Positions 8,961 through 53,518 of a stretch of DNA of 64,000 nucleotides are shown here, piece by piece (positions within the stretch are counted from its first letter, which is position 1; every line of letters starts with the position of its first letter). Source of the stretch: Strigamia acuminata (lineage: Eukaryota); the NCBI GenBank assembly GCA_949358305.1, contig OX442314.1:26784001-26848000 (forward strand). The letters run 5' to 3'. The notes under the pieces were generated by a model. The model did no database searches. It worked only from the letters and a program-made list of their open reading frames with translations, and was not told where the DNA came from. Made by a program: the position numbers and the translations under genes.

Positions 8961-11754
8961 CTCTAATCAGTGATCAAAAATCACTTGTATGCTTAGCATT
9001 GTCCACGTGGTGCAAAAATATATTTAACAACATATTGTTTTTCACTTAATACATTTCAAAATGTATTGCAATACATTGCAATATAATTTCAATGTATTTT
9101 AGAAGCACACATGGATGATAGCATCACATGTTGAGTGTTAATGGTGGTTAAAGGCTCTGGGGATAAATAAAAGAGATAAACAATGTTGAACAGTGTTTAA
9201 AGAAGTCCAGATTTCCTTCCTGAAGTGAACCTAAGTAATGAAGAAATAATAATATTTTGTTATGGCATATTCCAGCTTCTGCTTTTCATCTCTCCACAGC
9301 TGTTCTAGCTTACACCAGCTGAAACTCTTAATAAAAATTCAATCATAATAAACAAATACAAAAACAAACATCATTTGAATTATGTGCTATACATAAAGAG
9401 GGAAAAAATTCATTTTACCCAACAGCTCATCCATCTTTTTGCAAATCCAGCTTTTGATAAATGGGTGCACACTTGCTGTTGAGGATGGGGAATTAGAAAA
9501 CAGGGTGTGGGGGTGTTGCATTTCATCCAGGGTGGTCTCCTGCCTATTTGCTACTATATACTGCAGTGCTAAATGAAAAACTTGAAAAGATGTGTTTGTA
9601 AACTGTGCTATTCTTTACTACCACACACACAAAAAGGAATCCTTCCACTTGTTTGTGTTTATCACTTTTGTTTGTTCAATTTTCACAAACACCAAACTGT
9701 TGATAAACAAAACAAGATTTTTTATTTATTTTAATTCAAGAATCTCATAAATTTCTAAAATAAAAAACTGCAAAAATTTGAATTTTGGTGGGAAAAGGTG
9801 CAACAAATGAGCACTAATAAACAAAAATGGCTGAATTTGTTAAGTTAGCCTCGAATGGATCTGTGTGTGGTCCTATTAAATTGACAGCTCCTCTTCAGGA
9901 GGCCTTTCCAACTGCCCTTTGTGGGCACAAAGTTAGGGATCAGGTCCCACCCACCCTTGTGAGTGTGGACCCCTTGTGATGAGGCATAGGAGGGACATGG
10001 TACCCAAGAGTGCCCCCTAGAGGGAAACCCCATAACCTCCCTGGAAAAAAGGAAGTTCACAGGAGATGAAGCCATCACTGGGATGCCATAATCCCATTAA
10101 GTCTCACTTTTCTCTTTTCCCCTCTGTGCAAAGACCAAGAAAAAAGATTTAACAATATATGAAGTGCACTTGTTATTTTTCTTCTTCTACCAATGCACTA
10201 TAATTCCCGCATTTTCCTCTATGTATTTACACTGTAGGACAATCAATTTCAGGTGGCAGAATAATTGAGGTTTGTTTGTTAGTTGCAGACTCGCAGTCGC
10301 CGCCAAATGAGTTTTAAATTATGTGAATTTTATGGTGAAAAATGGGGGAAGGGATTAATCCTTTGATTACTTGATGGCAATTACTTGTTTTGTTGTTTAA
10401 TGTGGTTTTGTTGGTTGTTGGTATAAAGAATTAGTGGTCGTTTTTCTTTTTAAATGATGTTTTGTTAGTTTTTTTTGTAGAAAGGTAATTTTGGAGAAAG
10501 ACTCTTGTTAAAACAAATGGTGGAAACGAGAAGTAACGATTTGGTTGGCTACTGCGCAGGAGCAGAGAAAAAAAATCAGTTTTTTTAGCTCCAATATGTT
10601 TTTTAAAGATTTTTTACGAGGTTTTTTCATTTTTCATTTTTGTAACTTTTAAGCTCGAAGAAGTTGGTTTGATTCGTCGGCTATGCAGCGAAGCTTTAAG
10701 GGGCAAAATACTTCAAGTTTCGCATTGTACAGATACACAAATCGTCAAAAACTATTAAAAACTCCTTGATTTGCTTCTAAACGACGTATATTTTTTCAAT
10801 TACATAAATAAACAGTTTAATTTTATGTTTAAAATGTATAATAAAGTTTAAAAAAAATAATTTTTATAAAAACCAAATTTCTAATCCACCTCTCAACTTC
10901 AAAAAAAGCATAAAATTTAATTCCAGCATTTAATACACTGGAAACTAAAGATAAACAACTCAAAGAAGCTCGAGCACAATGCAATTAAAAAAAATTACCA
11001 AGTAATTATAATCATTTTTATTGTTTTTCTCAAACCAACTGAAAATAAATTTCCAAACCCTCGAAATTTATTGAATTAAAAGGAGATTCTTCATCTTTTT
11101 TTTTTTAATAGTGATTAATTACGACCAGTGGTAGATTTAATTGAAAATGGGGATTCAGTGGTGCAGCCTGACAGTGAAAACAGATGAAAGCAATCCATGC
11201 AAAAAGCTATTTGGAAGTTTAATTGGGATAATTTGATGAAGTTATCGTTTGGGTTTGTCCTTTGTGGTGGGTCCTTCTTAATAACCTGTCATTAGCCAGA
11301 TGCTAAGCCTTGATAATATGGTGAGGGTAAATAACCATTCTAAGAAGAAATTTATTTCAAAGGTGGCAGGTAGAGAGATATTGATGAAATTGTACCCTCC
11401 AATCAGTGCTTATCTAAAGGGAAAATCACAATGTAGGGAGCAGGGATGGAAAACATTTAGAAATCAAAATCATATATATTTAGTTTGACAAGTCTATTTT
11501 GAAAAATGAGGTGTTTTATATTTTTATTGCTTTATGCATCTGGATTCTGGGTCTAGTTTTTGGTGGGGACTCTGTGTTGGAAGTTTTTTCTATTTGGATT
11601 TGTACAAACATTTGAAATCTTAGTAATGTTGTTGTTTATATTTTGGATTTTATATTGGTATCTTAAAAATGCATTTGGAAATTTTTTTAGAAGTAGAATA
11701 TATTTAGTTATTTTATTATAAACATGTAAATGTATGAAAACTTCAAGAAAAACG

Positions 11755-12290
11755 TTTTTAAAATAGAATAAAAATGCATAAATTTGTTAAAAATAGAATA
11801 AAAATGCATAAATTTGTTAAAAATAGAATAAAAATGCATAAATTTGTTAAAAATAGAATAAAAATGCACAAATTTGTTAAAAATAGAATAAAAATGCACA
11901 AATTTGTTAAAACTAGAATAAAAATGCAAAAATTTTTTCAGAACTCAATAAAAAATCATTAAAAATTAGATAGAAGTACGAAAAAAACCCAATAAAAATC
12001 AGACAGATTCATGAAAAAATTTAATAAAAATTCATAAATGTATGAACAATCCAATAAATATTATATAAAACTGTGAAAAATCCAATAAAAATTGTATACA
12101 TCTAAGAAAAATCCAATAAAAATTGTATACATCTAAGAAAAATCCAATAAAAATTGTATAAATCTACAAAAAAATCCAATAAAAATTGTATAAATCTACA
12201 AAAAAATCCAATAAAAATTTATAAATCTACAAAAAAATCCAATAAAAATTCATAAATTTTTGAAAAATTCAACAAAAACTATGAATTATT
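11755..12290. repeat. Two adjacent A-tract minisatellites, 30-bp and 31-bp units
   Basis: AAATAGAATAAAAATGCATAAATTTGTTAA about 6 times, then TCCAATAAAAATTGTATACATCTAAGAAAAA-type repeats. Confidence 0.9.
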
Positions 12291-13036
12291 AGAAATCCAA
12301 TAAAACGTGTACAACCCACCAGAAACCAAATAAAAATCCCATATTTATTAAACAAAAATCAATAATCTTTAAGACCACATTCGATGCCCCAAATCTCTGC
12401 TGATGCTGCATTCAATACCAACTGACGAAATGCAAACTCCAGTTGGTGGTCACTTGTTATATTTGCTCCATTATTACCAAAAGTCAACATTACTCGCTAA
12501 GCAAACACCACAGGCATATTTACTTAGCAAATCAGACTGCCCCTGCCATCCTCACAAACCAATACTTCTGGCCACCAGGTGGCAGCATCATATATTAATA
12601 CAATCCCCACTTATTTCATACACCCAAACTACATAATCACTTTTTTTATGCTCAAACAACTAAAGATTTCTCCATCTATCTTCCAAAAACTACTTGAGCC
12701 ATAACACAAAAACAACCACACTAAAACAACCATTAAGCAAACAGGAAATGTCATTAATCTCCACTTAAAAAAAAAAAAAAAAAAAAAAACACCTAAAACA
12801 CCTTTTCTCCCAAGAAAACAAAAGAAAAAAGAAGTCCTAAACTCCTAATCTCCCAAACCACTCCCCTCTTATCATTCCCTGTCACTGACATGCAAAACCA
12901 CATATTTGATTTGCTCCAACCACAATATTTACCTGAATTTTACCATTTTATTACACCTCAACATGTTATGTACATTGAGTGACACCTTGGCTATAATGAG
13001 ATCCACAAACAGGATTGAGCCATCCAATGCTGAGGA

Positions 13037-13086
13037 TGACGTCAGAGCAGTGTAACAAATTGACAGACAGACCAACTGACCACCCA
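13037..13086. promoter_or_regulatory. CRE plus perfect Gli/Ci site, about 1.7 kb upstream of the proposed ptc start codon
   Basis: TGACGTCA at 13037-13044 and GACCACCCA at 13078-13086. Confidence 0.65.
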
Positions 13087-14754
13087 AGAAGCAACCCCCA
13101 TATAGCAACCATACTTGAGCCTTGCCTTGCAATGCTTGGCCAATGAGATTTGCTTGCTTGGGGTTTTTATCTCTCACCCTGTCCCCCCACTCCCCTTCTG
13201 CTCCACCCCTTCCTCTTTAAGACTTTTGCTTCTGACTGACAACACATTCAAAGTGGTCATCCAAGCAACACCATGGAATGGATTGTGGTAAGTTCACTTC
13301 ATTTAGATGAAAATCTTGCTTGGCTAAAATGCTTGCAAAGTTGGACAGGGTTTTGCTCAAACAGTCAAACACACTTGCACACTCCCACCTGCTGCTTAAT
13401 TGCTTTTTCTTCTGTAACAAACTCAATTTTGTGTCATTTTCTTTTTTTAAATGGAGGGAAAAGGAGAAAGTTTTCGTTTGTTGTTGTCATGTTGGAAATT
13501 GAAATTGAAATTGAAGGGAAAATTTAGAATTTTTTAAATTTAGTTAAATATACACAGATATTTTTTGTTTTGTTTAATTATTAATTTGTTTATGGAATTT
13601 AATTTTTTTTTCATTAGAAAATAAATTTAAAAAGGAAAATTATGAGTAATTAATAATTTATGGGTTTTGGAATTTGGATGGAGTTTTATTGTGAGTAATG
13701 TATTGACTTTAAAAATCATGTGTAAGAATTTACAGTGAAGAATTCTATTATTATATTCTTTAATTCATTTAATTCCTTCCTTTTCAAACTAAAATCAATG
13801 GTAAAACCAACCAAAAAAAAAGATCAATGAATGAAATTTAAGTGAATGAAGTTTTTTAAGACTTCATTTTGTTGCCGACAGATGGCCCTATCGTCGTGAA
13901 CTTACTACGGTTTCATGCAGTCTCCAAATGTAACAAAGCGCTACAATTCGCCGAATTCCAGACCACTTGTGAATCATGCTGACGTTAAATGTCTTACACG
14001 GATTGCATTCACAACTGAACTAGAAAATGAGTTGGGGTATTTGTCTCCTTCCAGCATGAAAACTATATATACTTTTATTGTGTTCTCGCTTTACTAGAAC
14101 ACGACTTAAAATGTAGCCGAGCTAAAATAGTCAATTACATCATATTTGCAAACTTTTTAATATAATCGAAACACACAGGACCTCGATAGAGGCCATAATC
14201 AACTCGCACAAAAAGACCGAAATGATTTATACCACCCGGGCCACCCAGTTGGACTTGGCCTCAAACCGCAACCAAGTCCACTAGTTTAAACAGGCCATGC
14301 CACCCCGACATCGGTTAATAAATAAACTAGTACGCTATGCCCCAAAACGCACTCTTTTCACTATAAATTAAACTATTATTCATCTACTTCGTTTCTCTAA
14401 CGGGACACATTTTTTTCCTCTTTTTATTCCTTGTACAACTTGTATTTTTTTTTAATATATATTTTATTTCTGCTCCTCTTTTTACATCATTTTTTCTCTC
14501 AACTTGTGTGGTCTTGGCATATTGGAGATGTGGTTGCTAGGTAACTAATGTAGGGCTAGAGATACGGTAAAATCCACCAATCAGAGCGCAATTGGCCTAC
14601 CCATCAATCATTCCCAAGCTCCACCTCCCGAGCAAGACCCCGGATGATAACATGGACTGCCATCGAAAACCTCACTATGCTCACTCAGTGTGCCGATATC
14701 TTGGATTTGTACACAGTTCAACTAAACTTGTGGGCAATGTATGAAGTATGAATA

Positions 14755-17700
14755 ATGGATAGCTGGTCTAACCCAGCTTTTAAAAATCTAAAGGTGAGTG
14801 CGGGCTCCGGACGTGCAAAAACGACAAAAACAACCATCAAGTGTGGATAACTATTAGCTACACGCTAGTATAGCGCCAACATGGCCTACTAGTTATTTAA
14901 GTAGGAAGTTAAGTTTTAAGCTTTGTTTACGGTTTTACTCATTTCTTTGGTGTTTAAACACGAATATTTACGTTTATCGATGGTAAATGGATGTCCCGCT
15001 TGGGTTATTAGATGAAAATAGTCGATTTATGGTTTCAAATGTGAATTTTTCGTGGTTTATTACATTTATTTATTTATTTTATTTTATTTTTCAGGGATCG
15101 GATAAACTCCGACCTCGCAAATCCTCCAGATCAAAAGAAGATTGGGATTTACTTACTAGGACTAGTTGGCGGGATGCGAAAACTGCACTATCTCAGATTA
15201 ATAAGGTAAGTTCTAGGGCAATTTTTTTTTTTACTGCTTGCTTGTGGTTGTGTGGTCTTGTCTTCTTTTTTTTGGTGGGGCATGTTTATTAAGCATTGTG
15301 ATTGGCTAATTCGTGTCACGTGATTTTGTTTATAGATTGTGATGGGAATTAAACATGGTCGTCTTAATTACTCGCTTCGAATTGATTTTTGGTCGGAAAA
15401 ATTAAATTTGGGGGTTTTAACAGGTGGGATTTGGTGGAAATGGTTTAATTTTGTTGTTGGGATAAATTTTTCATAAGTTTTTTTTAACTATTTTGTTTTG
15501 TTTAATTTAATTTTTTAAAAGTTTTGGTTTTTGTGTTTTGGAAGTTTCACTTCGTGTTTGAATGAAATTCACTCGTGATGATCTTGCTAGCTACCACTTT
15601 GCTTACGTCATTTTGCAAATTTCTGGCCGTGTGCCAGCCTTGACGACCACCCGCAGTTTCTTCCTGTCTTTAATCCTTTGAATACTATTTTTTTACACTT
15701 TTTATCTGGCAAAAATGCTGATCACAGTTTTGTTTACATTTTTTTTTTACATTGCAACATTACATGATGCAATTCATGTCATTTTTATCAATTTTCAAGT
15801 GGAATTGGATCAATTCCATGGTCAACCTGAACTAAATTTTCTTTTTTAATCCATTTAAAAAAAAATCCTTACAATACTTTTTATTTATTTATTTATTTTT
15901 TATTTTTTAGGGCAAAGCAACAGGGAACAAGGCAGCTCTATGGCTCAGAAGTAAACTCCAGTGTCATCTTTATAAGTTGGGATGTTTCATTCAAAAAAAC
16001 GCGGGAAAAGTCCTTTTTGTTGGTTTATTAGTTCTTTCAACATTCTGCGTGGGATTAAAATCTGCAACTGTTGAAACTGACATAGAAAAATTATGGATTG
16101 AAGGTAAAAATCGATTTATTTATCCATCCATTTATTTCTTCCTAATCTTACATAACATGAGGTGTATTCAATGGACACAAGTAAATTTCTATCCAAGTTT
16201 GTATTTTTTTTTGTTATTAGAAACTCATGAACTTTGACTTGGACAAAATGCCTGGAGGTTCAAGGGTGTGTAGTGACCCATAAGATTCCATTTATGGATA
16301 TTTCCAAACACATTTAAGTGGGTTGCAGCTTGATTATACAGAATAAATGTATATGTAAGGCTAAGCAGTGTCTTGCAACCCATAAGATAAGGGCCATTGA
16401 ATATAATTGTGTTTAAACTTAAACTTAAATTAAAAAATAAGAAACGCAAGATCTTGGATTAATTTTTTAGTTTTTGGGTGCGAACAACAATTTGCAGCAG
16501 GGCTGGACTGAGTACAAATTTAGTACCGGGAAATCTGGATGGATCGGGCCACAGGGACAGACTACGGTGGGCCAGGGACGGGCCACAAGTCACCGGGAAA
16601 TTCCCTGCCGGGCCAGTCCAGCAGTAGCTGCATTGAAAAATTAAAATAACAATTTTAGTTTACGTGTGTTTTAAGTTTAAACGTGGGTTTAAACAGGAAA
16701 TGATGTCATTTTTGGTTTAAAATTGAAGTAAAACACAAAATATTTTAGTTTTTGAATGCAGCTACCGATTTGCGGCATTGTAAACTAGCCTTTAACGTTA
16801 ACGTGAAGTTTTTTGTTTGTGACGCAAGAACTAGTGGGTTTCGGCATCCCTTGAAGAAATGATAATTTACAAATATGGTTCAGGTATTTCTCTTGTGGTT
16901 TAATTCAGACTTGTTGAATGAATGAAACTCTCAGTGAGCTAATTCAGGAAATACTACACTCATGAAATAAAGATAAACAAGTTTATTTTTAAACTTGATC
17001 ATAAGTATGGTGGTAACAAATTGTATCATTAATCCACTCTGAGCCACGAAAAATGAATTAATTTCCGGTGATTTTTTGCTAGTTGGGACATAACTCATCC
17101 ACCTAGTGGGAGATGTCGGTTTTATTAAGACAATTTGATGTGTTATTCCAGGAATAATGCAGGAAATAGCCGAGGAAGATTGAGATATCAAAGTGTCAGC
17201 ATGGAGCACCCTGCTGACAGCTCGTTGCATTAGTGGAGAAATTTCTAAACGAATTCTATAAGATTGGATATAGAAAATGTGTGGTGTGAAGTGTTTGGGA
17301 GAGAAATGTGAGAAAAGTTTGAAAAATTCCTTTTGACAGAAACCGGAAATTTGTAATAAAGTTGTAAAGCGGCATCTGGCGGCGATTAATTTTTATGGAT
17401 TATAAAGGTTGGTTTTCGGTGACACGCCATCTTTTTAGCGAGTGAAAAGAAGGGGAGAATGCGGCATAAGGAGCCGGGGAATAAAATCATCTTTTCTCTT
17501 GACAGCTCATACAAATAGCTATTCATCTAGGTGGCAGGGAGTGGCTGAAGGCCCACCTTCCACGCTCTGNNNNNNNNNNNNNNNNNNNNNNNNNNNNNNN
17601 NNNNNNNNNNNNNNNNNNNNNNNNNNNNNNNNNNNNNNNNNNNNNNNNNNNNNNNNNNNNNNNNNNNNNNNNNNNNNNNNNNNNNNNNNNNNNNNNNNNN

Positions 17701-20188
17701 NNNNNNNNNNNNNNNNNNNNNNNNNNNNNNNNNNNNNNNNNNNNNNNNNNNNNNNNNNNNNNNNNNNNNTTGGCTGGCCCAGGGTCCATGATGAACATTG
17801 TCTTCAACTTGAGGCACTTGTGGCTCTTCAAAAGCATTAAATATGGTTGGAAAAAAGTTGTTTACCTCAATGAAATTCAACAAACAAGCTGTTTTTTCCT
17901 CACTTTATTAAATACTAGAGAAAAAAGGGGGAAATTTATGGACATTTTTCGCGATGAATGTGAATTTTTTAATGGGTGGTGATAAAATTTGCGACTAAAT
18001 GTGGTGGAAACGGCAACAATTTGAGGTTAAAGTTGGTTTAGATGCTGGAAAAAGTGTTTAAGGATAGTAAGAGAGAGAATTTTGAGTGTTGACTGGCCTC
18101 AGGGTCATGCAATGGCAATGTGTGTGGTCTGATGTGGAGGTTTCCCTTTGGGCCAGGCTGACCTCACTAGTCCACTGCAGGAAACAAAGAACCAAGCCTG
18201 TCTTGGCGTTGCAAACCCCCTCATCCCTCTTTTTCTTCTAGTTTTAGAGCGGTTTTTCTAATTTATGGCTACTCATTATCAGAAAATTGGTGCTAGAATT
18301 GGAATTTCGAATAATTGTTTTTTTTTGTTTTTTGTTTTGTTTTTGTAAATTATTTTTTATTTATTTTTATTTATTTTTATTTATTTTTTTGATTTTTTTG
18401 TTTTGCAGAAGATGGCAGGTTAGAGAAAGAAATGGAATATATCAGGAAAAACTTGGGAGATGGAGCGTGGGACTCGAATCAAATCATACTGCATTTACCC
18501 AAGCAGGATGGAGCGAATGTATTGCATGTGGATTCCATGTTGGCCCACCTTGATGCAGTTTTGGCCGCCACTCAGGTTCACGTGGAGATGTTTGACGCGT
18601 AAGTGCACTCGAGGTTTTTCCGAGGGAATTGTTTTACGATACTGTAAATGCGGGCATCTAACACTGTTTATTAGCGATGTTTTTGTTGATGAATTCGAAC
18701 AAAAATAGTGCATTTTTATGGTATTTTCTTTTTTCTCGCGTTTTAAACGGCGTGTCTCGATATAACGTAAAAATGGCGGCCGATTTACTTTTCAGTCGGA
18801 GTGGGCACGCGCGCGAAATAACGATATAACGAATTTTTTCGATATAACGATTTTTTTTTCAATATAACGAATTTTTTCAACACAACGAATTTTTTCAACA
18901 CAGCGAATTTTTTCAATATAACGAATATTTTCGATATAACGAATTTTTTCAACATGACGAATTTTTTCAATATTACGAATTTTTTCAACATAACGAATTT
19001 TTTCAACACAACGAATTTTTTCAACACAACGAATTTTTTCAACATGACGAATTTTTTCAATATTACGAATTTTTTCAACATAACGAATTTTTTCAACACA
19101 ACGAATTTTTTCAACACAACGAATTTTTTCAACACAACGAATTTTTTCAATATAACGAATTTTTTTGATATAACGAATTTTTCGATATAACGAATTTTTT
19201 CAACATGAATTTTTTCAATATTACGAATTTTTTCAACATAACGAATTTTTTCAACATGACGAATTTTTTCAATATAACGAATTTTTACGATATAACGAAT
19301 TTTTTCGATATAACGAATTTTTTGTTACAAATATTTAAAAATGACTCGGTTGGTTGGTTGGCCGTCGGACACCACGTTAAAAAAAAACTGATAAAACGAA
19401 CTTTCGTTATAACGAAGCGATGTTTTGGGTTTCTTGCGATTTGTTTGTGTCCCATTCGAGAATTAGTTTAATTAGGTCCAGTCCTGAGCATGCGCGGCCC
19501 ACAAACTGTGGAAATAAGAGGATTTGAAAGCAGTGTTGCGTGCGATTTTAATATTTATCATCAAATCTGCTTATCACATGTTGCACGTGTGAAAGGGAAC
19601 CGAAGCAAGACGAAAATGTTGAAAAAAGGAGGAGGAAAAAAAAGGCGAAGTTTGGCATTTCTCGCGCTAATTAAGACGTTAAAACCCATGATGCAACACG
19701 CTGAGAATTAAGTTAAGATGGCCATCCGCAGCTCCTGAGGCGGGAACACAATTCTGAAGGCTAATGATACCTCTCTCACTCATTCATTAGACATACTAAA
19801 AGGTTAAACGGTGTTGGAGTCTGCACGCAAACTGCTCGCAGTCATTTTTGTTTTGTTCCATCGGCTAAAGAATGTGTAATTTCGCTCTCTTCTTTTCCTC
19901 TGATTATTTATTCTTGATATTGAAATGATTTCTGGGGGTGGGCCTTTGTTCTTGACGGTATGGCCTGCGCGGAGACCACCCTGCAGTGAATAGGAATTAG
20001 GAAATGGGTTTGCAAAGGTCTGCAAGAGTACAAGACTAGGTGGGTTTTTAAGGAGGTCTGCATGCGTGTAGACTAGTTGCAGCAAGGGATTACATGGGTT
20101 TTTTTATTTTTTATTTTTTTTTTATTTGGAGGGACTATGGGGGTTTTGTTTGGGGTTTACTCCTTTGGTTTGGGGGTTTGGGGTTGTG

Positions 20189-20224
<36 letters not shown>

Positions 20225-23200
20225 GGTTTTTTTTTTTTTTTTTTTTTTTTTGTGGTTGGGTGGTTGGGGGGGTTTGTGAGGGAGGTATTGTGTGGTGTTT
20301 TTGTTTTTGTTGGTGGTGATTTTTAATGGGTTTGGTTCGAGGAAGTTGGTTAGGATGGTTGGGAATCTTGGGATTGTGGAGAGGTGATGGGAATGGTTGG
20401 TGGGGTGAGTTGGATTTTTGGGTTTTGGTTGGGTTTTGAGAATTTTTTTGGGTTTTGGATTTGGTTTTTTTGGTGTTTTGAGGAGGTTTTGATGCATTTT
20501 GGCGAAATTGGTGGAAATTTATGATAAATCTTTACAATATGTGAGAAATTTAAGATAAATCTTTACAAAATCTGAGAAATTTAGGATAAATCTTTGCAAA
20601 ATCTGAGAAATTTAGGATAAATCTTTACAAAATCTGAGAAATTTATGATAAATCTTTACAAAATCTGAGAATTTTATGATAAATCTTTACAAAATCTGAA
20701 AAATTTATGATAAATCTCTACAAAATCTGAGAAATTTATGATAAATCTTTACAAAATCTGAGAAATTTATGATAAATCTTTACAAAATCTGAGAATTTTA
20801 TGATAAATCTTTACAAAACCTGAAAAATTTATGATAAATCTTTACAAAATCTGAGACAATTATGATAAATCTTTACAAAATCTGAGAAATTTATGATAAA
20901 TCTTTACAAAATCTGAGAAATTTATGATAAATCTTTACAAAATCTGAGAAATTTATGATAAATCTTTACAAAATCTGAGAAATTTATGACAAATCTTTAC
21001 AAAATCTGAGAATTTTATGATAAATCTCTACAAACCTGCATAAAATTCCCGAAATTTTAATAAATCTATACAAAATTATAGAAATTTTGGTATTTTGGTA
21101 CATGATATTGATAAATCTCCACAAATTACAACAAAACTTGAGAAACTTCAAAAAAAAAAAACTTTAATTTCCAAAAATCTTTGCCAAACACACCAAACCT
21201 CTCTCCAAAAACCCCAAAATCCAAACTCCCAAACCACAAAACCCGACCCACCACTCACAATCCCTTTGAAATCCCCAAAAGCCGACCATTCTCATAACCA
21301 ATCCCAAATATTTAACCAGCACTCAACGTCTATTTAAATCACCAAAAACCGATTTCCTCTCCATCCTCAACCGACAGCCCAGTCAAATAACTTTCTGCAC
21401 AGTAATGTTTACACAATTAAACCAACAAAATCCATTTCCAAAATTTTTTTCTCTTTTTTTCCATCTTTATATAATTTATTTTTATAAAAAAAAACCAAGA
21501 ATGCCAAGAATGTGTTGCGACATTGTACACTGGCAGTGTTGTTGCGTAGTAGTTGTGTGGTCCGCAGCTGAAACGTTGTCAGGGGTCGAATCCCACGACA
21601 GTCTCGGTTTCTACCTCGTGCATAGACATAACACTCGCATTGTTTTCAATTAGGGGCTTCGAAGTTTGAGTTTGTTTGCTGTTTACCACCTTGGCACCCA
21701 TGTGCTTGACACATGTGTTGAAAAAAAAATTTGCCAGAAAAATTTTAAAACGTTGAAATTGGATGTAAACTGAGTGACAAGTGATTAGATGGAAGTTTTT
21801 AAAACGGGGGTGAAGAAAAAAGTGTTTGAAATTTTTTTTTTTTGGTGCAAAATGGTTCCTCATGTGAGGGAAAAATGTGATGAATTGAGAAAACGTGGTT
21901 TCTGTCAACACTTTGCTTCATTTGCTGCTTTATTTTGGTCGTAATGATTTTTTTTAAATGTTTTCTTTTTGTTTTTTATTTATTTTAGGGTTTGGAAATT
22001 GAAGGATCTTTGCGTGTCACCAACTTATCCTGCTTTTGAAGATGGGGCCTTGGAACAAGTGAGTTAAATTGGAATTTTGGAATTTTTATTTATTTTATTT
22101 TATTCATTTATTTATTTTTTATTTAATTTTGTAGATATTTGAAAAGTTGATGCCATGTGCCATTATAACTCCGTTGGATTGCTTTTGGGAAGGATCGAGA
22201 GTTGTCGGACCGGATTACCCGATACAAATACCGTAAGTTTGGATCCTTGTTTGTTTGGTTAATTTAAGCGGATTTATTTTTGTGTTTACCGAAAATTTTA
22301 TTTTCTTGTCCAAAATGGCAGTTTATTGCAGAAAAAAAACATTTATTTTGTCTAAAATTACAGTTTTATGCATAAAAATACATTTATTTTGTCTAAAATT
22401 GTGGGTTTATGCATAAAAATGCATTTATTTTGTCCAAAATTGCTGTTTTATGCACAAAAAAACATTTATTTTGTCTAAAATTGAAGTTTTCTGCATAAAA
22501 ATGCATTTATTTTGTCCAAAATTGAAGTTTTCTGCATAAAAATGCATTTATTTTGTCCAAAATTGAAGTTTTATGCATAAAAATACATTTATTTTGTCCA
22601 AAATTGCAGTTTTATGCACAAAAATACATTAATTTTGTCTAAAATTGCAGTTTGCTGTATAAAAATTACAGTTTTTGGGCAAAATGAACATTTTTTTTTG
22701 TCTAAAAGTACATTTTTCTGCCTATAAATGCCTTATCTTTGTTAAAAATAACAACATTCTGCCTAAATTATATGAAAATAAATTTTTAGAACTCTAAATT
22801 TGCATATTTCTGCCTAAAAATTACATTTATCATCATCAAAAAAACTTGAGTTTTTTCATTAAATATAAAAAAAAGTATAAAAAAAAATAAAACAGCAATC
22901 ATTGACTAAAATGCTTGTGTCATGGAAATAGTGGGTACATTGCAACTTGAGTTGTAGCAGAAAAAAATGGCGGTGGAGCTTCTGTGGCGACCACCCACTT
23001 AGAGGAGAGCAGCTGTGTGTCATTGTGTGCAAAACCCAGTGGCACTTGCTGTTTCAAAAGGGTTATAAAGCCCTCGAAATATTCAAATAAAATGAATTAA
23101 CATTCCATTTTCATGCGACATTTCCCAACATAAAAATAAAAAAAAATAAAAATAAATTTAAAATAATTTTTTGTTAAAACATTCAGTGTTGGAGATAGTA

Positions 23201-26200
23201 AGTAAGTAAACAGTTTTGGGTGTGTAGTAGGAATGAAGGGGAGGGGAAGCGAGTAGGGGTTGGGGGTAAAGGAGAAATAGAGGAAATGGTTCCCACCAGA
23301 GAGGAAGTAGGGGTTGAAGGGGGGAGTCCCATAGGGGGTGATTGGTTGAGGAGATTCCCTGCTGTTGGACATGGAAGGTGGGCTGTGTCAGATTTGTCAC
23401 TTGTGATGTCTCTTTTGCAGACAGGCGCATTTTTCAGGTTTAGTGAATGTCCATTTTTTTTTTTTTTTTTTTTTTTGGTTTTCTTAAAAAAATTTTGGAA
23501 AAAATTGATTTGATTATTTTTATTTATTTCAGTCAGTGGCATGGTGGACCGGTTCAGTGGAGCAATTTAAACCCAATGGAACTATTAAAACTAATGAAAT
23601 TGACATTTACATCACCATCAGATTCAATTGAGTCGTTCATGAAAAGAGTAAGTTTTTTTTGGGGGGGGTTTTGGGGTTTGGAAGGGTCTTAAGTGTTTAT
23701 TCTAGTTCTATTCAATTTCTATAGAATGGAAATTCCATGCGTTCCACTTGCTTGCTTTTCAATCCTCTTAGATTTTATACTCTCTTTTTTCTTTCTTTCT
23801 TCTTTGAAGGTTTAGATGATGAAGGAATTTTTTTTGATTTATTTTTTTTTTATGTTTACTTATCCACTTTATCTCACCCCTCTTCTTTTAAATCCAGTTT
23901 AGGGGGAATTAATTTAATTCCAATTTATCTTTACGGATGTTTTTATTCGTTCGGACAACTTGACAGACGTCGTAGAAAAAATTAAAATTTTTAATAAAAT
24001 GAAATATAAACTAAATCGCGCCACGAGCCGATTGATCCACCGCTCGGAGTTGTAACAAACTTATTTTTTTGTAATTTATTAAGGCCGGCGTGACGACCGC
24101 GTATCAAGAAAAGCCGTGTCTCAATCCATTGGACCCCGAGTGCCCCAATACGGCTCCGAACAAGAAGTCGAAATCGGTAAGTGCAAACAACGGCGAAGTT
24201 AAAAGGGAAATTGGCATAAAATGTGAGCTAAACTTGTTTCTGGAAAAAATAAAAGCGGGGAAGACTGCATCAAATACATCATGGCACCGTGAAATGGACC
24301 CATGACAGGCGTAGCCAGTGCTGGGCACAGGAAGGGAACACACTGAAGGGCTGGTGCCATGAAAAGGCTAAAAGTTTGGCGTCGGGATCTTTTGATGTCT
24401 TTTTCGACATTCCAAAAGAGGCTTTAGAAATGGTAACCGAGAAAGATTGAGTTTGAAAAAGGTGAATGACAGGGGGGGAGAGGGGGGAAGGTGAGATCTG
24501 AGACAGCAAATTGAAATCAAAAGTCACTTTAAAGTTGTGTCTCAATGAATCAATAGTGGGTAATGTGGGAAAGCAGAACTAAAGGGGGGAAAATCTTGGA
24601 TTTAAAGAAAAATTTAAGCTATAGAAATCCAACAACCAAACACCAAAGTTGATCCTCACCAAAGATTTATCACATTCTGAAGAAATTTTCTACACATTTG
24701 ATCAGATTTGATTGGAAATCGATTAAATTTGATCAGATTTGATTGAAAATCGATTAAATTTGATCAGATTTAATTGAAAATCGGTTAAATTTGATCAGAT
24801 TTAATTGAAAATCGGTTAAATTTGATCAGATTTAATTGAAAATCGATTAAATTTGATCAGATTTAATTGAAAATCGGTTAAATTTGATCAGATTTAATTG
24901 AAAATCGGTTAAATTTGATCAGATTTGATTGAAAATCGATTAAATTTGATCAGATTTGATGGAAAATCGGTTAAATTTGATCAGATTTGATTAAAACTCG
25001 ATTAAATTTGATCAGATTTGATTAAATTTGATCAGATTTGATTAAATTTGATCAGATTTGATTAAATTTGATCAGATTTGATTAAATTTGATCAGATTTG
25101 ATTAAAAATCGATTAAATTTGATCACATTTGATTGAAAATCGATTAAATTTCATCAGATTTGATTGAAAACCTTTGAAATTTTATCAGATTTGATTGAAA
25201 ACCTTTGAAATTTGATGAGATTTAATTGAAAACCTTTGAAATTCGATCAGATTTAATTGAAAACCTTTGAAATTCGATCAGATTTAATTGAAAACCTTTG
25301 AAATTCGATCAGATTTGATTGAAATCCCATGAAATTTTATTCGCTCTTGTCGATTCGCTGTAGCACATTTGGACCGTAGCCGAATTACACGGTTTTATAT
25401 TGGATTTTGATTTGTCCATTGAAACCCCACGTTGTTGGTGACCCAAGAGCGAGAGAGTCTTAAGATAGGGGACAGTTATGGGGTTGTTGCCTGGAATTTT
25501 AAGTTCCAGGCTACAAGTATTAAAGCCAGAACCAGTTTGCAGCCTTATTTACTGATAGTGTTTTGACACTTGCTTAGAAGAGTTACATTTTTCACTCATT
25601 TCCACTCCATATTTAATATTTACGCATTTATTTTTCCAGCTACCAGATGTTTCCGCCGAACTAAATGGTGGATGCAAAGGTGTGGCGGCGCGCTACATGC
25701 ATTGGCCGGAGGAATTGATCGTTGGCGGCGTGAAAAAAAACAGAACTGGACACATAATGAGGTAATAAAACGAATACATCCTGTTGCATTCAAATTACTA
25801 ATCCTTTTAACATTTGCTTAATTGATGATTGCAGAGCCGAAGCCATTCAGACGATTATTCCATTAATGGGCGAGCGACAGATGCACGTGTTTTGGAAGGA
25901 TAATTATAAAGTTCACAATATTAATTGGAACGAAGAGAAGGCGAAGGAGATCATCGAGACGTGGCAGAGGAAGTTTGCGAGCGAGGTGCAGAAACACGTG
26001 GCTGTGTCGAATGTGACGCGCCATCAGCGGATTACTGCGTTTTCGACGACTTCGCTGTCGGATATTTTGAGGGATTTTTCCGAGGTTAATGTCACGAAAA
26101 TTGTGTTGGGGTATTTATTTATGGTAAGTTTGTTGTTGTTGTTATTTTTTTTTTTTAGGGGTTTTAATTTTGGTATTGTTTTCAGCTTATTTATACGTGC

Positions 26201-29200
26201 GTGTCGCTTTTGCGGTGGTCGAATGTGGTTCATTCGCAGAGCGGAATCGGGTTGGTTGGTGTGTTGTTGGTCGCGATGTCGATTGCGGCGGGATTGGGGT
26301 TCTGCGCGCTGATTGGAATTATGTTTAATGCATCGACGACACAGGTGAGTTTGTTTTGTTTTGTTTTTTGTTTTGTTTTGTTTTGTTTTGTTTTGTTTGT
26401 TTATTTTTTTTTAATTTTTATTGTAGATTGTGCCATTTCTCGCTTTGGGTCTTGGTGTTGATGATATTTTTTTACTCACTCACACCTACGCTGAAAATGT
26501 AACCAATGAGATTTCTGTGGAGGTGAGAAATTTTTTTTTGTTTTGAATGAGTGTTTTTTGATTTTATATTAAAATTCTTCTTTTTTCTTAAATTTGATCT
26601 TGGATTAATATGTTTAGAGGTAAGTTATTCTATTTATGCGTCTAAAATGCATTTTTTTTACGTTTAAAATTCGTTTTTTCGTGTAAAATGTGTAAATTTG
26701 CACGAAAAAAAAATCATTTTTGCCTGTAAAATGTATACAATGTGCAAATTTACATGAAAAAAATCATTTTTGCCTGTAAAATTTACACAATGTGCAAATT
26801 TGCTTTAAAAAAATTGAATTTTGCCTGTAAAATGTATACAATGTGCAAATTTACATGAAAAAAATTGAATTTTGCCTGTAAAATGTACACAATGTGCAAA
26901 TTTGCATGAAAAAAATTGAATTTTGCCTGTAAAACGAGCAAATTCAGGTGAAAAAAATCTTTTTATGCAAAAATATCAAGAAAATCGGACAATAAAATTC
27001 TAAGAAATGTTTTAAATTATAAAAAAAAAAATAATATTCAAATTTCGACACAAACCTAAAAAAAAAGGCCCCAGAATTAGAAACTCATTAGCAAAATGAT
27101 TCTCTCCTAATCCATCAATTTCAAAAAGAAAAAAAAAACATACTTTTGAGGTCTCGACAGTAAATTATCTTTACCATCTGGCTTTTCACCAAATACATTT
27201 TAATTAATTTTTTATTCAAAAAAAAAATAAAAAAAAAAAATAAAAAAATTACTAACACGTGAAAATCCCTAAGGACTTGTACTAAATATTTTTTTTCCCT
27301 CATTTTCATTTTTTAGGAAGAAACCGGTGAATGTTTGAAGCAGACCGGTCTAAGCATCTTATTAACTTCAGTCAGCAACATGTTTGCCTTCTTCGCAGCT
27401 GCCATAATTCCCATTCCAGCCCTGCGCGCTTTTGCGCTCCAAGCCGGCATTTTAACGCTTTTCAACATCGCTTCGTCGTTGCTCATCTTCCCCGCCGTCG
27501 TCAGTTTGGATTTACGTCGAAGAGAGTCCAAACGCATCGACATTTTCTGCTGTTTCGTGAGGTAAACATCAAAACCCGAAGAAATAAAATCGATTTAATC
27601 AATCTAATCAATGCAATTCCAGCTCCCAAAAGGACAAAACCACGAAAAACACTCCGATATTACCCACGGTGGACCCTGCGTCGAAGCGGCACCAAACGGT
27701 GACCCGTACCATCTCGCCAGAAGGCCATCACGTGACGACAGTGCTCGCGCAAGACGATTCGTGGCCCGCGCAAGTGTCGTCGTCGCCGTCCGTCGAGTCG
27801 CTGGCCACGACTTGCACGTCGACGTCGACGAGGGAGTTGGTTTCGGACAAAGAGGAGAGTTTCAAGGCCCGGTGGTTCGACGGGTGTTTGGACACGCAAA
27901 AGTGCTATGTTTGGTCGTTGACGCGTTTCGCGAGGGATTTTTACGGACCGAGTCTGCAGAAAACGTCGGTTAAGGTGCGGAGTTGGTGGGATTTGTTTGA
28001 TTTTTTGGGTTTTTTTTTTTAAAAGTGGTTTTGTTTTGTTTGTAGGTTTTTTCCATGTTGGGGTTCATCTGTTTGCTGTCGTTGAGTGTTTGGGGCGCAT
28101 TGAGGGTGTCGAACGGTTTGGATTTGACCGATATTGTGCCGCATGATTCGAGCGAGTATCGGTTTCTGCGCGCTCAGAATGACTTTTTTGGATTTTACAA
28201 CATGTTCGCGGTGACTCAGGGAAACTTCGAATATCCGACCAATCAGAAACTGCTGCAGGAGTACCACGATGCGTTTGTGCGGGTGGAAAATGTGGTGAAA
28301 AATGACGATGGCGGATTGCCTGATTTTTGGCTCAGCATGTTCCGCCAATGGCTGAAAGGTATGTACATATTTATTTGTTTGTTTATTTATTTTTTAATAT
28401 TTATTTTTTTTAATTTTTAGGATTGCAAGATGCGTTTGATGAAGATTGGACAAACGGATGTATTTCGCAGGAATGGTGGTATAAAAATGCGTCGTCGGAT
28501 GGCATTTTGGCGTATAAACTGTTAGTACAAACGGGGCAAGTGGATAATCCTGTGGATAAATCACTCGTAAGTATTTGATGAAATCATTTTGAGCAATGTT
28601 TTATATTTTGGTAATTGATTTCTCGTAGTTTGTTACTTTTTTATTTACATTTTTTAAATTTTTATTCAATTTTTATACAATATTCATTCAATTTTTTACA
28701 AATTTTCATTGAATTCCAACATTTTATTACAAATTTTCATTGAATTCCAACATTTTATTACAAATTTTCATTGAAATCTCACATTTTATTACAAATTTTC
28801 ATTGAATTCCCACATTTTATTACAAATTTTCATTGAATTCCAACATTTTATTACAAATTTTTATTGAAATCCCACATTTTATTACAAATTCTCATTGAAA
28901 TCCCACATTTTATTACAAATTTTCATTGAATTCCCACATTTTACGACAAATTCTCATCGAATTCACACATTTTATTACAAATTTTCATTGAATTCCCACA
29001 TTTTATTACAAATTATCATTGAATTCACACATTTTCTTACAAATTTTCATTGAATTCCCACATTTTATTACAAATTATCATTGAATTCACACATTTTATT
29101 ACAAATTTTCATTGAATTTACACATTTTATTACAAATTTTTACTGAATTCACACATTTTATTACAAATTTTCATTGAATTCCCACATTTTATTACAAATT

Positions 29201-31439
29201 ATCATTGAATTCCCACATTTTATTACAAATTATCATTGAATTCCCACATTTTATTACAAATTTTCATTGATTTCCCACATTTTCTTCAAAATTTTTAACC
29301 TTTTCCTTTATTTGCAGGTGACTAAACTTCGTTTAGTGAACGACGACGGAATCATCAACCCGAAAGCCTTCTACAACTATTTAACCGCGTGGGTATCAAA
29401 CGATCCGCTCATATACTCAGCCTCGATGGCGAACCTACGTCCCGAGCCTAAAATGTGGATCCACGACGCCCGAGACTACGAACTGAAAATCGGCAAATCG
29501 CAGCCGCTAGTGTACACCCAATTACCGTTCTACCTCAACAAACTGAGCACCACCGAGCAAGTGACCACCACGATCGAAGCGGTGCGGGACATTTGTCAGC
29601 GCTTCGAACAACGGGGACTTCCAAACTTCCCGACCGGAATTCCCTTCACTTATTGGGAACAGTACCTGAGTCTCAGATTTCATCTATTCCTCGCCCTTTT
29701 GTGCGTCTTGGCCGCCATCTTTATCGTACTTTCGGTCGTTCTCGTCAATCCGTGGGCAGCCATGTTGGTGGTTGTTGTGTTGGCGGCCATTGTGCTACAG
29801 TTGTATGGCTTCATGGGGATAATCGGCGTGAGGCTGAGTGCTGTGCCCGCCGTCATTCTCATCGTTGCCGTGGGCATCGGCGTGGAGTTTACGGTCCATG
29901 TTTGCGTGGTAAGAGAAATTTAATTTTTCTTTTTTTTTAAATTGTTGTTTGATTTTTTATTTTTTGTTTAGGGTTTTTTGACGAGTATTGGTAGTCGGAG
30001 TAGACGGATATGTATGTCGTTGGAACATACGTTTGCGCCGGTTGTGCACGGGGGACTGTCGACGCTTTTAGGGGTTCTGATGCTCGCGTTTTCTGAGTTT
30101 GATTTTATTGTCAGGTAAATATGAAGGTTTAGTTTGGTCAGGCACGAGTGTTGTTTGGAGTTTTTGGAGGGTTGATTGGTGTGGCTTTTGGGGGAGTTGA
30201 ATTTTCAGATTTGCATTAGAAAAATTCAAATTTCCATTAGAAAAATTCAAATTTCCATTAGAAAAATTGAATTTCCATTAGGAAAATTAGAAAAATTCAA
30301 TTTCCATTAGAAAAATTAGAAAAATTCAATTTCCATTTGGAAAATTAGAAGATTTCAAAATTGCATTAAATAAATTCAATATTCTATTAATTAAATACAA
30401 AATTCCATTAAATAAATTCAATATTCTATTAATTAAATACAAATTTCCATAAAATAAATACAAAATTCCATTAAATAAATTCAATTACCATTTCCACACT
30501 AACAGTTATGCTATACTTTAATGCTTGTTGCATCTAACCTCAAACCAATGCATCAACGTCTCGCATTTTAACTCCAACGATGTTTTTCAACCATTAATTC
30601 GTGCCTGGTGGAATATAATTCATTATTTGAGTGAAGATTTCACCGAAAAATAATCTCCAAACGAAATAAATGCATAAATAAATAACATTCATGTTTTTTT
30701 TTTCTTCTAGATATTTTTTCTACGTTTTGTGCGCTTTAGTAGTCATTGGACTAATCAACGGTCTATTATTTTTTCCAATTTTATTATCCTTAATTGGACC
30801 TTCCGCCGAGGTACGTAAACAAAAACACAATTAAAACCTAAGGTTTGATCCAATTATTAATTGATTTAATTAATTTCCAAAGGTCATTCCCAAAGACAAT
30901 CCCGACAGGATCGCGACCCCGACCCCGGAACCGTCGCCGCCGCGCGTCAGGTACAAATGCAAGAAGAACAAAGCGGACTTGCAGCAAAACAGACGGATGT
31001 ATCCGTCGGAAATCTCCTTGTCGACGATAACCGAGGAGCCGCCATCTTGGCAGTCCTCGCACGAAATCGTCGTTCAACCGGAGGTGGTTGTGGAAACAAC
31101 TACGTCGTATCCTCGCAACGATGAGAAAAACAACGAGGTAATAATTGAGTTTGAAATAATTTTATTATGTAGAAATTATATAAAAATGAATTTTTGCAGG
31201 ATCCTTCAAGTACAAATATCCCACTAAATTATCCAACGGCCGTAACGACAAAAGTGACTGCAACTGCAAAGGTTAAAGTGGAAGTTCACACACCATTTCC
31301 TGGTAAATTAATTTATTTTTAAATTGATTTTAATTATTTATTGGATTAAAATTTAATTTATTTTTTTTATTTTTTAGTTGGTCTTAATAGGGAATCAAAT
31401 TATAAACACAAGAAGAGAAAAGATGGTGAAAGAAGATGA
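14755..31439 (+). CDS. ptc: Patched, Hedgehog receptor. Exons 14755-14793, 15095-15205, 15911-16103, 18409-18598, 21989-22058, 22135-22232, 23533-23647, 24084-24176, 25640-25761, 25835-26123, 26186-26344, 26427-26522, 27317-27561, 27623-27974, 28046-28358, 28421-28566, 29318-29908, 29972-30114, 30711-30810, 30883-31137, 31200-31302, 31378-31439
   Basis: Phase-consistent GT-AG chain with Ptc-specific motifs: [76 protein letters not shown], sterol-sensing domain [53 protein letters not shown]. The first coding exon ([13 protein letters not shown], phase 0) is inferred. Confidence 0.96.
16624..16765. mobile_element. Small palindromic MITE in ptc intron 3
   Basis: Inverted ends GTAGCTGCATTGAAAAATTAAAATA / TATTTTAGTTTTTGAATGCAGCTAC. 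Confidence 0.6.
17570..17769. other. Assembly gap (200 N) inside ptc intron 3
   Basis: Run of N. The flanking exons join in phase, so no coding exon appears to be missing. Confidence 0.99.
18755..19445. repeat. 18-bp tandem array (ATAACGAATTTTTTCAAC) expanded inside a MITE remnant
   Basis: About 28 copies. The right flank (TTCGTTATAACGAA...GGGTTTCTTGCGATT) matches the MITEs at 35140-35322 and 57287-57417. Confidence 0.85.
20520..21070. repeat. 31-bp minisatellite (ATGATAAATCTTTACAAAATCTGAGAAATTT)
   Basis: About 17 tandem copies. Confidence 0.95.
22330..22660. repeat. 41-bp minisatellite
   Basis: CATTTATTTTGTCTAAAATTGCAGTTTTATGCATAAAAATA-type unit, about 8 copies. Confidence 0.9.
22989..22997. 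promoter_or_regulatory. Perfect intronic Gli/Ci site
   Basis: GACCACCCA in ptc intron 6. Confidence 0.55.
24695..25325. repeat. 31-bp minisatellite with a 20-bp sub-array
   Basis: GATTAAATTTGATCAGATTTGATTGAAAATC repeats, with ATTAAATTTGATCAGATTTG four times at 25001-25080. Confidence 0.95.
26690..26945. repeat. 50-52-bp minisatellite
   Basis: TGCCTGTAAAATGTATACAATGTGCAAATTT... repeated about 5 times. Confidence 0.85.
28695..29282. repeat. 31-bp minisatellite (AAATTTTCATTGAATTCCCACATTTTATTAC)
   Basis: About 19 tandem copies. Confidence 0.95.
30205..30490. repeat. Degenerate 21/42-bp minisatellite
   Basis: AAAAATTCAAATTTCCATTAG-type units. Confidence 0.8.
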
Positions 31440-32724: not shown

Positions 32725-32930
32725 GTGAATGGAGAAAAAGTAGATATTTATTCAAAAAATGAATTTTTGGTCAAAAATAGAGAAAAAAGTGAATATTTGG
32801 TCAAAAATTGAGAAAAAAAAAATGAATATTTGGTCAAAAATGGAGAAAAAAGTGAATATTTCGTCAAAAATTTAGAAAAAAATGAATATTTGGTCAAAAA
32901 TGGAGAAAAAAGTGAATATTTGGTCAATAA
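32725..32930. repeat. About 30-bp minisatellite
   Basis: TGAATATTTGGTCAAAAATGGAGAAAAAAG, about 6 copies. Confidence 0.85.
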
Positions 32931-49214: not shown

Positions 49215-49219
49215 GCCTC

Positions 49220-53392: not shown

Positions 53393-53518
53393 TAAAAAAA
53401 TTCATTGCGTTGGGGATAAAGTAGGTTGCTAAAATGTTCGAGTATCTTTGCATTAATCTGCAGAATTTGATTTAGAACTCAACATATGGTATACCACAAT
53501 TGATATAATACCGGGTAC

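What the first reader, a model, noticed from the sequence alone, without database searches (positions are those of the whole stretch)
10300..30700. Kilobase-scale strand-skew flips (G/T-rich to C/A-rich), often centred on the minisatellites and visible in exons
Seen by eye: 20090-20500 is extremely G/T-rich, then the 31-bp array, then C/A-rich 21130-21400. The same polarity appears around arrays at 11755, 26690, 28695 and 30205, and at 4260. Exons follow it: 25900-26344, 27900-28560 and 29750-30114 look G/T-biased, while 27317-27700 and 29330-29700 look C-biased. Some flips (about 10700, 15580) have no array, and the 24695 array is unclear. Transcription direction is constant, so it cannot explain this. 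Inference: localized strand-asymmetric mutation, such as recurrent double-strand breaks with deamination of resected strands (predicts C>T left, G>A right), or replication origins with G-rich 5' and C-rich 3' flanks.
Basis: partly seen in the sequence, partly recalled or inferred. Interest (0 to 1): 0.7.

Follow-up and report, generated by a model that had tools for sequence, protein, structure and literature searches.

The report
Mirror strand skew around curved minisatellites
In a centipede's patched gene, the DNA flips from G/T-rich to C/A-rich about every two kilobases, mostly at intronic repeats with a 10-base helical rhythm, and silent coding positions flip with it, which likely records repeated germline DNA breakage and repair at those spots.

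Summary
The window is from a Strigamia centipede and holds the patched gene (+ strand, 21 exons). Nine of 11 AT-rich arrays between 4 and 33.5 kb have a G/T-richer left flank and a C/A-richer right flank (0 of 3673 circular shifts reach the mean). Synonymous sites flip too (66% vs 41% G/T, p=3e-12), while 0 of 19 patched homologs from other organisms do so at the same codons. Short introns left of an array hold 3 C in 362 bases, against 30 in 179 on the right. New here: the arrays are mutually unrelated but nearly all carry A-tracts phased at 10-10.3 bp, i.e. they are PATC-like (PATC-like DNA is already noted for S. maritima). The flanks are unique sequence, not inverted repeats. Polarity, 0.6-kb reach and a roughly 3-fold C>T excess on one strand plus GC bias fit single-stranded DNA at resected breaks; amplitude and scale do not fit replication skew. 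Against: no polarity inside arrays, two arrays without a flip, six of 15 flips without an array, and no polarised substitutions or genome-wide test were obtainable. Same polarity is known, weakly, around Drosophila conserved elements.

The parts
15095..31429 (+). patched gene, 21 coding exons found (5'-most coding exon not located), Strigamia sp.
   Evidence: Exons join into one open frame of 1278 codons with AG/GT borders; 1129 of 1183 aligned residues identical to S. maritima T1IK20; that protein carries the Patched and sterol-sensing Pfam domains
4231..4792 (.). AT-rich array, 20-bp unit, A-tract period 9.9 bp; flip centre (dK +0.30)
8230..8959 (.). AT-rich array, 10/20-bp unit, period 10.0 bp; itself C/A-rich, flip at its left edge
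11760..12305 (.). two adjacent arrays (30- and 31-bp units), period 10.3 bp; flip centre (dK +0.50)
12306..13200 (.). C/A-rich right flank; single-copy depth, partly alignable to organism B
18824..19323 (.). 18-bp-unit array, not helically phased (8.9 bp), adjoining a dispersed repeat; weak GC flip (+0.10)
20090..20513 (.). extreme G/T-rich left flank (GC skew +0.80, TA skew +0.58 over 500 bp)
20514..21034 (.). 31-bp-unit array, period 10.3 bp; strongest flip centre (dK +0.98)
21035..21500 (.). C/A-rich right flank (GC skew -0.58)
22306..22666 (.). 41-bp-unit array, period 10.3 bp; flip centre (dK +0.39)
24696..25324 (.). 31-bp-unit array, period 10.3 bp; no clear flip (dK -0.11), an exception
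25870..26686 (+). G/T-biased exons and C-free short introns left of the 26687 array
26687..26934 (.). 51-bp-unit array, period 10.2 bp; flip centre (dK +0.59)
26935..27770 (+). C/A-biased intron, exon 27317-27561 and short intron 27562-27622
27775..28637 (+). G/T-biased exons and short introns left of the 28638 array
28638..29295 (.). 31-bp-unit array, period 10.3 bp; flip centre (dK +0.24)
29318..30114 (+). exons whose silent sites run from C-rich (right of 28638 array) to G/T-rich (left of 30204 array); crossover near 29700
30204..30484 (.). 21/29-bp-unit arrays, mixed period (7.1 bp dominant, 10-bp component present); flip centre (dK +0.47)
32754..32941 (.). 30/31-bp-unit array, period 10.3 bp, downstream of the gene; no flip (dK -0.02), an exception
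10500..10850 (.). array-free downward flip near 10671, on a small CpG-rich patch with residual 10-bp periodicity (96th percentile)
13600..13950 (.). array-free downward flip near 13785
15450..15780 (.). array-free downward flip near 15616
31700..32000 (.). array-free downward flip near 31870, beside the only AATAAA in 31.4-32.3 kb (31953), the likely 3' end of patched

Best explanation
The DNA around mostly intronic, 10-bp-phased AT-rich minisatellites is G/T-rich on the left and C/A-rich on the right, including at silent sites, and this likely records long-lived germline break sites whose resected single strands lose cytosines. Shown: the mirror skew, its centring on arrays, its reach of about 0.6 kb, its presence at synonymous sites and in short introns, and the helical phasing of the arrays. 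Inferred: the bent, nucleosome-disfavouring arrays (and some array-free open sites such as the gene's ends) attract recurrent double-strand breaks, probably meiotic; 5'-to-3' resection exposes the top strand on the left and the bottom strand on the right; C (and perhaps A) on the exposed strand mutates faster; gene conversion during repair favours G/C, which turns the C loss into G excess at four-fold sites; and repair at the centre may itself seed or expand the arrays.
For: Polarity: in human hotspots single-stranded DNA lies left of the break on the forward strand and right on the reverse, extends 1-2 kb, and flanking mutations are strand-asymmetric C>N and A>N (PMC7615360, section 4 and legends read); loss of C and A on the top strand left of a centre is what is seen. 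Silent sites: G/T at 293 of 442 left vs 140 of 341 right, in all three classes (T vs C 87/122 vs 28/81; G vs A 59/100 vs 32/84; four-fold C 43/220 vs 65/176). Not protein-imposed: 0 of 19 homologous loci reach the window's difference (range -0.13 to +0.12 vs 0.24-0.34), and position in exon adds nothing (p=0.24). Six short introns left of arrays hold 3 C and 51 G in 362 bases; three on the right hold 30 C and 15 G in 179. A symmetric model is rejected (deviance 57, 3 df); about 3.3-fold C>T on the exposed strand plus net GC bias fits (p about 0.16), A>G alone fits worse (p about 0.015). C is depleted after every 5' base (ratios 0.46-0.67, lowest after T) and flips occur in both CpG-poor (o/e 0.26) and CpG-rich (1.42) stretches, so methyl-CpG decay is not the driver. 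One contig of organism B (run X4) differs at 62 of 579 bases beside the 13785 flip against 48 of 998 in the two neighbouring troughs. Human hotspots bias tandem repeats towards insertions (PMC7615360 passage).
Against: No polarised substitution spectrum was obtained; all mechanism evidence is compositional. Variants inside the arrays show no polarity within TRF limits (M>K left/right 30/28, K>M 22/24, p=0.84); a signal appears only when already-skewed flank is included. Two of 11 arrays (24696, 32754) are phased but have no flip, and 6 of 15 downward flips have no array, of which only one shows notable residual periodicity. Centres every 1.8 kb (median) would be an unusually dense set of hotspots. 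Centres are AT-rich, not GC-rich as gene conversion would predict, unless array turnover hides it. The same polarity is reported around Drosophila conserved elements with no link to breaks shown (PMC3671938 passage). The organism-B divergence contrast rests on one gappy contig and is confounded with selective constraint. One 33-kb locus only.
Confidence: 0.45

Rival explanations
1. Chromatin-centred asymmetry without breaks: the phased arrays and array-free sites are nucleosome-poor cores that start short divergent transcripts or polarise repair, giving a C/A-rich strand running away from the core on both sides.
For: Drosophila conserved elements are AT-rich foci with more A and C than G and T downstream (PMC3671938 passage); the coding strand is C-biased at 5' ends and G-biased at 3' ends of genes in fungi, and C-biased at starts in invertebrates (PMC3315797 abstract); PATCs disturb nucleosome organisation (bioRxiv 2026.08.08.743475 abstract); flips also lie near the likely 5' CpG-rich region (6369) and 3' end (31870) of patched.
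Against: No transcript or chromatin data here; near-total loss of C from short introns and a jump up to 1.38 in GC skew are larger than I would expect from weak cryptic transcription (judgement, not tested); does not by itself explain the GC bias needed in the silent-site fit.
Confidence: 0.27
2. The arrays are very efficient replication origins (yeast-type polarity, leading strand A/C-rich) or fork-stalling sites (human-type polarity), and the skew is leading/lagging-strand mutation bias.
For: [quoted passage not shown]
Against: Yeast origin jumps are about 9% and fade over about 20 kb; the same paper rejects replication for large, 3-kb-scale jumps at Candida centromeres on that ground. Here the mean jump is 0.44 and fades by about 0.6 kb with centres 1.8 kb apart. 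Human origin jumps have the opposite sign.
Confidence: 0.12
3. Selection for DNA or RNA structure (nucleosome positioning, splicing enhancers, pairing of flanks) maintains polar flanks.
For: Kenigsberg and Tanay argue for non-neutral GC balance around fly elements (abstract); PATCs have a demonstrated anti-silencing function in C. elegans (PMC4947018 listing and passage).
Against: Short introns with the same splicing needs have opposite composition by side; position in the exon has no effect; flanks are not complementary beyond composition; hundreds of silent sites would each need weak coordinated selection.
Confidence: 0.1
4. The units are remains of foldback or Helitron-type mobile elements whose inverted or skewed ends flank an internal minisatellite.
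For: About 80% of C. elegans PATC signal overlaps Helitrons and maps to their internal minisatellites (bioRxiv 2026.08.08.743475 results read), so the arrays themselves could have such an origin.
Against: Flanks include conserved exons; own left/right pairs align no better than cross pairs (1 of 11 beat all 200 shuffles, at an array with no flip); flanks have single-copy depth where covered; only 2 of 66 array pairs share sequence at E<1e-3; no shared flank repeats in a self-search.
Confidence: 0.06

Closest known systems
PATCs (periodic An/Tn clusters) of C. elegans; PATC-like DNA noted for S. maritima (PMC4947018; bioRxiv 2026.08.08.743475)
   Same: Intronic AT-rich DNA with A/T tracts phased at about 10 bp; minisatellite-based; the 2016 paper names the centipede S. 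maritima as having PATC-like structures.
   Different: Here the periodicity is confined to young-looking tandem arrays with unrelated units of 20, 21, 30, 31, 41, 51 bp and is absent from other intron DNA; no Helitron link found; the words skew/asymmetry in a compositional sense do not occur in either main text, so the mirror flanks are not described there.
Strand-asymmetric mutation around human meiotic hotspots (PMC7615360; PMC11922761)
   Same: Mirror polarity with C and A lost from the strand whose 3' end points at the centre; reach of 1-2 kb; tandem repeat gains at centres.
   Different: In humans it is a slight excess among rare variants at short-lived PRDM9 sites; here it would have run close to equilibrium, with near-total C loss in some introns, at centres 1.8 kb apart. 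Breaks are not shown here.
Skewed composition around Drosophila conserved elements (PMC3671938)
   Same: AT-rich core, GC-richer surroundings, A/C excess downstream.
   Different: Cores are 20-70-bp conserved elements and the skew is an averaged inset; here cores are 0.2-0.7-kb fast-evolving arrays and the skew is visible at single sites and in codons.
Replication-origin skew jumps in yeasts and large non-replicative jumps at Candida centromeres (PMC3459929)
   Same: Downward GC and TA jump of the same sign as at yeast origins, seen at third codon positions; Candida centromeres give a precedent for large, few-kb jumps not due to replication.
   Different: Origin jumps are about five times smaller and about thirty times wider; the features here are many, intragenic and 1.8 kb apart.

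Membership tests
PATC (periodic An/Tn cluster) | A/T tracts recurring at about 10-bp period over hundreds of bases | tested here: met
   9 of 11 arrays have dominant period 9.9-10.3 bp; autocorrelation peaks at 10, 20-21, 31, 41; 12 of 13 unit lengths within 1 bp of a multiple of 10.3. The published PATC scoring algorithm itself was not run.
PATC (periodic An/Tn cluster) | Location in introns of transcribed genes | tested here: met
   Arrays at 20514, 22306, 24696, 26687, 28638, 30204 lie in patched introns; 4231 and 32754 lie outside the located coding span.
PATC (periodic An/Tn cluster) | Host gene is germline-expressed and protected from silencing | not testable with these tools
   No RNA holder listed; no functional data.
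PATC (periodic An/Tn cluster) | Derivation from Helitron minisatellites (C. elegans) | tested here: inconclusive
   Arrays unrelated to each other and flanks unique within the window; no genome held to search for a parent element.
Meiotic DSB hotspot footprint | Mirror asymmetry with C/A loss on the strand exposed by resection | tested here: met
   Composition only; geometry from PMC7615360.
Meiotic DSB hotspot footprint | Polarised new mutations follow the same asymmetry | tested here: inconclusive
   Array-internal variants show no polarity; contig laying gave too few, unpolarised differences.
Meiotic DSB hotspot footprint | SPO11/DMC1 signal or crossovers at the centres | not testable with these tools
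   No such data available.
Replication-origin skew jump | Jump of about 10% that decays over tens of kb between origins | tested here: not met
   Mean GC-skew jump 0.44, decay within about 0.6 kb, spacing 1.8 kb vs PMC3459929 section 16.
Foldback / inverted-repeat transposon | Left and right arms are reverse complements and are repeated elsewhere | tested here: not met

The most novel reading that the evidence does not exclude
In Strigamia, helically phased (PATC-like) minisatellites are evolutionarily stable germline break sites, so dense and long-lived that resection damage has rewritten flanking introns and silent codon positions close to equilibrium. Skew flips would then be a break map readable from one genome sequence, would tie PATC-type bent DNA to recombination initiation, and would suggest that breaks both seed the arrays and are guided by them.
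Probability: 0.33. Interest if true: 0.82.

Novelty: new variant of a known kind. Interest (0 to 1): 0.6.

Why it matters
Where meiotic breaks fall in arthropods, and why PATC-like DNA arises in a few distant lineages, are open questions. If the mirror skew is a break footprint, one assembly gives a hotspot map and a direct prediction for DMC1 or SPO11 mapping; if it is chromatin- or replication-driven, it is an unusually strong, site-resolved example of a weak pattern known in flies. Either way codon usage in this gene is set by distance and side to the nearest intronic array, which would mislead codon-bias and dS-based analyses in these centipedes.

Tried and rejected
No whole genome is held, so the genome-wide meta-profile could not be run. 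Sequencing runs: 6 listed, no RNA holder listed. Laying contigs on 26940-28630 gave cover in 5, 6, 9 and 0 of 30 bins and six single-base differences: uninformative. Laying on 12320-17560 showed 40 of 147 difference rows, unpolarised: no spectrum could be polarised. Amino-acid differences to S. maritima (54 of 1183) were too few and too poorly polarised by distant outgroups to test direction. Array-internal variant polarity: null within TRF limits; my first tally used hand-extended limits and repeated variants and is not used. Inverted-repeat origin of the flanks rejected. Exon-position and protein-constraint effects rejected. Methyl-CpG decay rejected as main driver. Hidden periodicity at array-free flips: only 10671 stood out (1 of 7 centres at or above the 95th percentile). 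The idea that array-free flips all sit on CpG patches is not supported (clear for 6369 and 10671 only). No sharper downward than upward transitions (skewness 0.17). PRDM9 status of Strigamia was not settled by the passages read (PMC4760075). Cayrou et al. 2011 is not held; its fly origin skew is known to me only from recall and a table entry. Literature searches that found no description of these flips in Strigamia; the library lacks most subscription papers, 7 of 19 supplement files of PMC4947018 were not searched, and the bioRxiv supplements were not seen.


Full report
Setting. The window holds the end of a RhoGAP gene (+ strand) and a patched gene. Twenty-one exons from 15095 to 31429 join into one open frame of 1278 codons. 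The best database hit is Strigamia maritima T1IK20, with 1129 of 1183 aligned residues identical, so the source is a Strigamia centipede, probably not the S. maritima reference. All 391 tblastn hits of Patched relatives in 1-33.5 kb are on the + strand; direction is constant over the coding span, though no RNA data were available. From 33.5 kb on the window is mostly transposons and duplicated sodium-channel-like genes. No whole genome is held.

The observation. From 144 TRF rows I merged 17 arrays; 11 lie between 4 and 33.5 kb, a range chosen after viewing the profile. Left-minus-right skew over 500 bp is positive for 9 of 11 (keto), 10 of 11 (GC) and 10 of 11 (TA); means 0.34, 0.44 and 0.28; 0 of 3673 circular shifts reach them. 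Masking homopolymer runs leaves 9 of 11 and 0 of 4615 shifts; dropping the three strongest arrays leaves 6 of 8 and 58 of 4615. The meta-profile rises from about -700 to the array, reverses at it and returns by about +500. An array-blind scan gives 15 downward flips beyond 4 kb, 9 at arrays (25% expected, p=0.004), median spacing 1.8 kb; 1 of 14 upward transitions is at an array, and upward transitions sit in GC-richer DNA (p=0.004). Exceptions: arrays 24696 and 32754 have no flip; flips at 6369, 10671, 13785, 15616, 23857 and 31870 have no array. Beyond 33.5 kb the scatter of skew is near binomial and GC and TA skews are no longer positively correlated.

It is a substitution bias. Within 600 bp of an array, synonymous third positions are G/T in 293 of 442 cases on the left and 140 of 341 on the right (p=2.6e-12), with T over C, G over A and four-fold G over C each significant. 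By exon part, 10 left and 6 right parts separate (p=7e-4); position within the exon adds nothing (p=0.24); and at the same codons 0 of 19 homologous loci from metagenome contigs approach the window's difference (pooled 0.489 vs 0.481). Of 11 short introns, six left of an array hold 3 C and 51 G in 362 bases and three right of one hold 30 C and 15 G in 179. The other two (31138, 31303) have an array 0.7-0.9 kb to their left yet contain no C; they break an array-only rule but lie left of the array-free flip at 31870, and I left them out of that count. Intron-only skew follows the same pattern on a weak G/T baseline.

What the arrays are. Their units are unrelated (2 of 66 pairs share sequence) but 12 of 13 unit lengths fall within 1 bp of a multiple of 10.3 (null 0.2, p=3e-8), and 9 of 11 arrays have a dominant A/T-tract period of 9.9-10.3 bp; other intron DNA has none. 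This is the PATC signature. Frokjaer-Jensen et al. 2016 mention PATC-like structures in S. maritima in one sentence (PMC4947018, passage). A 2026 preprint derives C. elegans PATCs from Helitron minisatellites and ascribes curvature and nucleosome disruption to them (abstract, first part of results and section 13 read). Neither main text describes flanking skew. The flanks are not element ends: own left/right pairs align no better than cross pairs, inverted arms are at most 59 nt and made of A/T runs, and depth is single-copy over 12.3-16.3 kb, unlike a high-copy element at 16498-16764.

Mechanism. Resection at a break leaves the top strand single on the left and the bottom strand on the right; in human hotspots the flanks show asymmetric C>N and A>N changes over 1-2 kb (PMC7615360, section 4 and legends; also PMC11922761 passages). 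That is the sign and roughly the scale seen. At four-fold sites the left side gains G rather than T (103 of 220 vs 50 of 176; T unchanged), which at first looks unlike C>T. A crude equilibrium model resolves this: symmetry is rejected (deviance 57), about 3.3-fold C>T on the exposed strand with a net GC bias fits (p about 0.16), and A>G alone fits worse. The model ignores context and the transcription baseline, so it shows compatibility only. C loss is not CpG-specific. One contig of organism B is about twice as diverged beside the 13785 flip as in neighbouring troughs and fails to align just left of it; this is weak and confounded by constraint.

Against. Variants inside arrays show no polarity (p=0.84), although homogenisation and the lack of asymmetry at human hotspot centres make that test weak. 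No polarised substitutions were obtained. Hotspots every 1.8 kb would be very dense. The same sign is reported around Drosophila conserved elements (PMC3671938, abstract and passages) and at fungal gene ends (PMC3315797, abstract and passages), so a chromatin- or transcription-centred cause remains open; those patterns could equally share the break cause (my inference). Replication fits poorly: yeast origin jumps have this sign but are about 9% and 20 kb wide (PMC3459929, section 16), and human jumps have the opposite sign (PMC4298691 passages).

Verdict. Real, strong and statistically robust at this locus; a mutational mirror bias centred mainly on PATC-like arrays. Recurrent germline breaks are the most likely cause (0.45), open-chromatin asymmetry next (0.27), replication (0.12), selection (0.10), mobile-element ends (0.06). 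Both ingredients are known separately; their coupling and strength were not found in the searches run. Earlier scan notes on a fungus and on an arthropod FoxP gene report similar mirror skews; they are unchecked leads, and one pointed me to the Drosophila paper.

Noticed in passing
window 7284, 7685, 7742, 13078, 22989: Five perfect matches to the Gli/Ci binding consensus (motif recalled, not from a call), three clustered in the CpG-rich region 6200-8000 (CpG o/e 1.51), as expected for a Hedgehog-target patched promoter.
   Followed up: partly
window 25640-31140 vs 15095-23647: GC at synonymous third positions is strongly heterogeneous along patched (about 30-45% in most early and last exons, 59-73% in several central ones; p=3e-16), and CpG o/e runs from 0.26 (8960-13500) to 1.42 (25640-31140) within one gene.
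   Followed up: partly
window 16498-16764: Short high-copy interspersed element with sharp ends (summed depth over a thousand times single-copy) in intron 2, present in organisms A and B.
   Followed up: no
window 44550-49215: Copia-type LTR retrotransposon on the - strand (gag, integrase, RT by Pfam) with near-identical terminal repeats seen by eye at about 44525-44715 and 49025-49215; it interrupts a duplicated segment.
   Followed up: partly
window 40791-41678, 55542-56435, 62864-63451: Tandemly duplicated amiloride-sensitive sodium channel (DEG/ENaC) gene pieces on the - strand; 33252-33651 also matches 53462-53866 at 90%, indicating a segmental duplication.
   Followed up: partly
window 38700-39900: Long near-perfect palindrome: ORFs 38858-39364 (-) and 39397-39792 (+) encode almost the same peptide; no Pfam match; looks like a foldback transposon remnant.
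   Followed up: no
window 12596-12730: The organism-B contig has about 490 more bases here than the window (record coordinates), an insertion/deletion in the C/A-rich flank.
   Followed up: no
window 17571-17770: Assembly gap of 200 N in intron 2; a 10-bp periodic signal just after it (17801-18000) suggests an unassembled array could lie in the gap.
   Followed up: no
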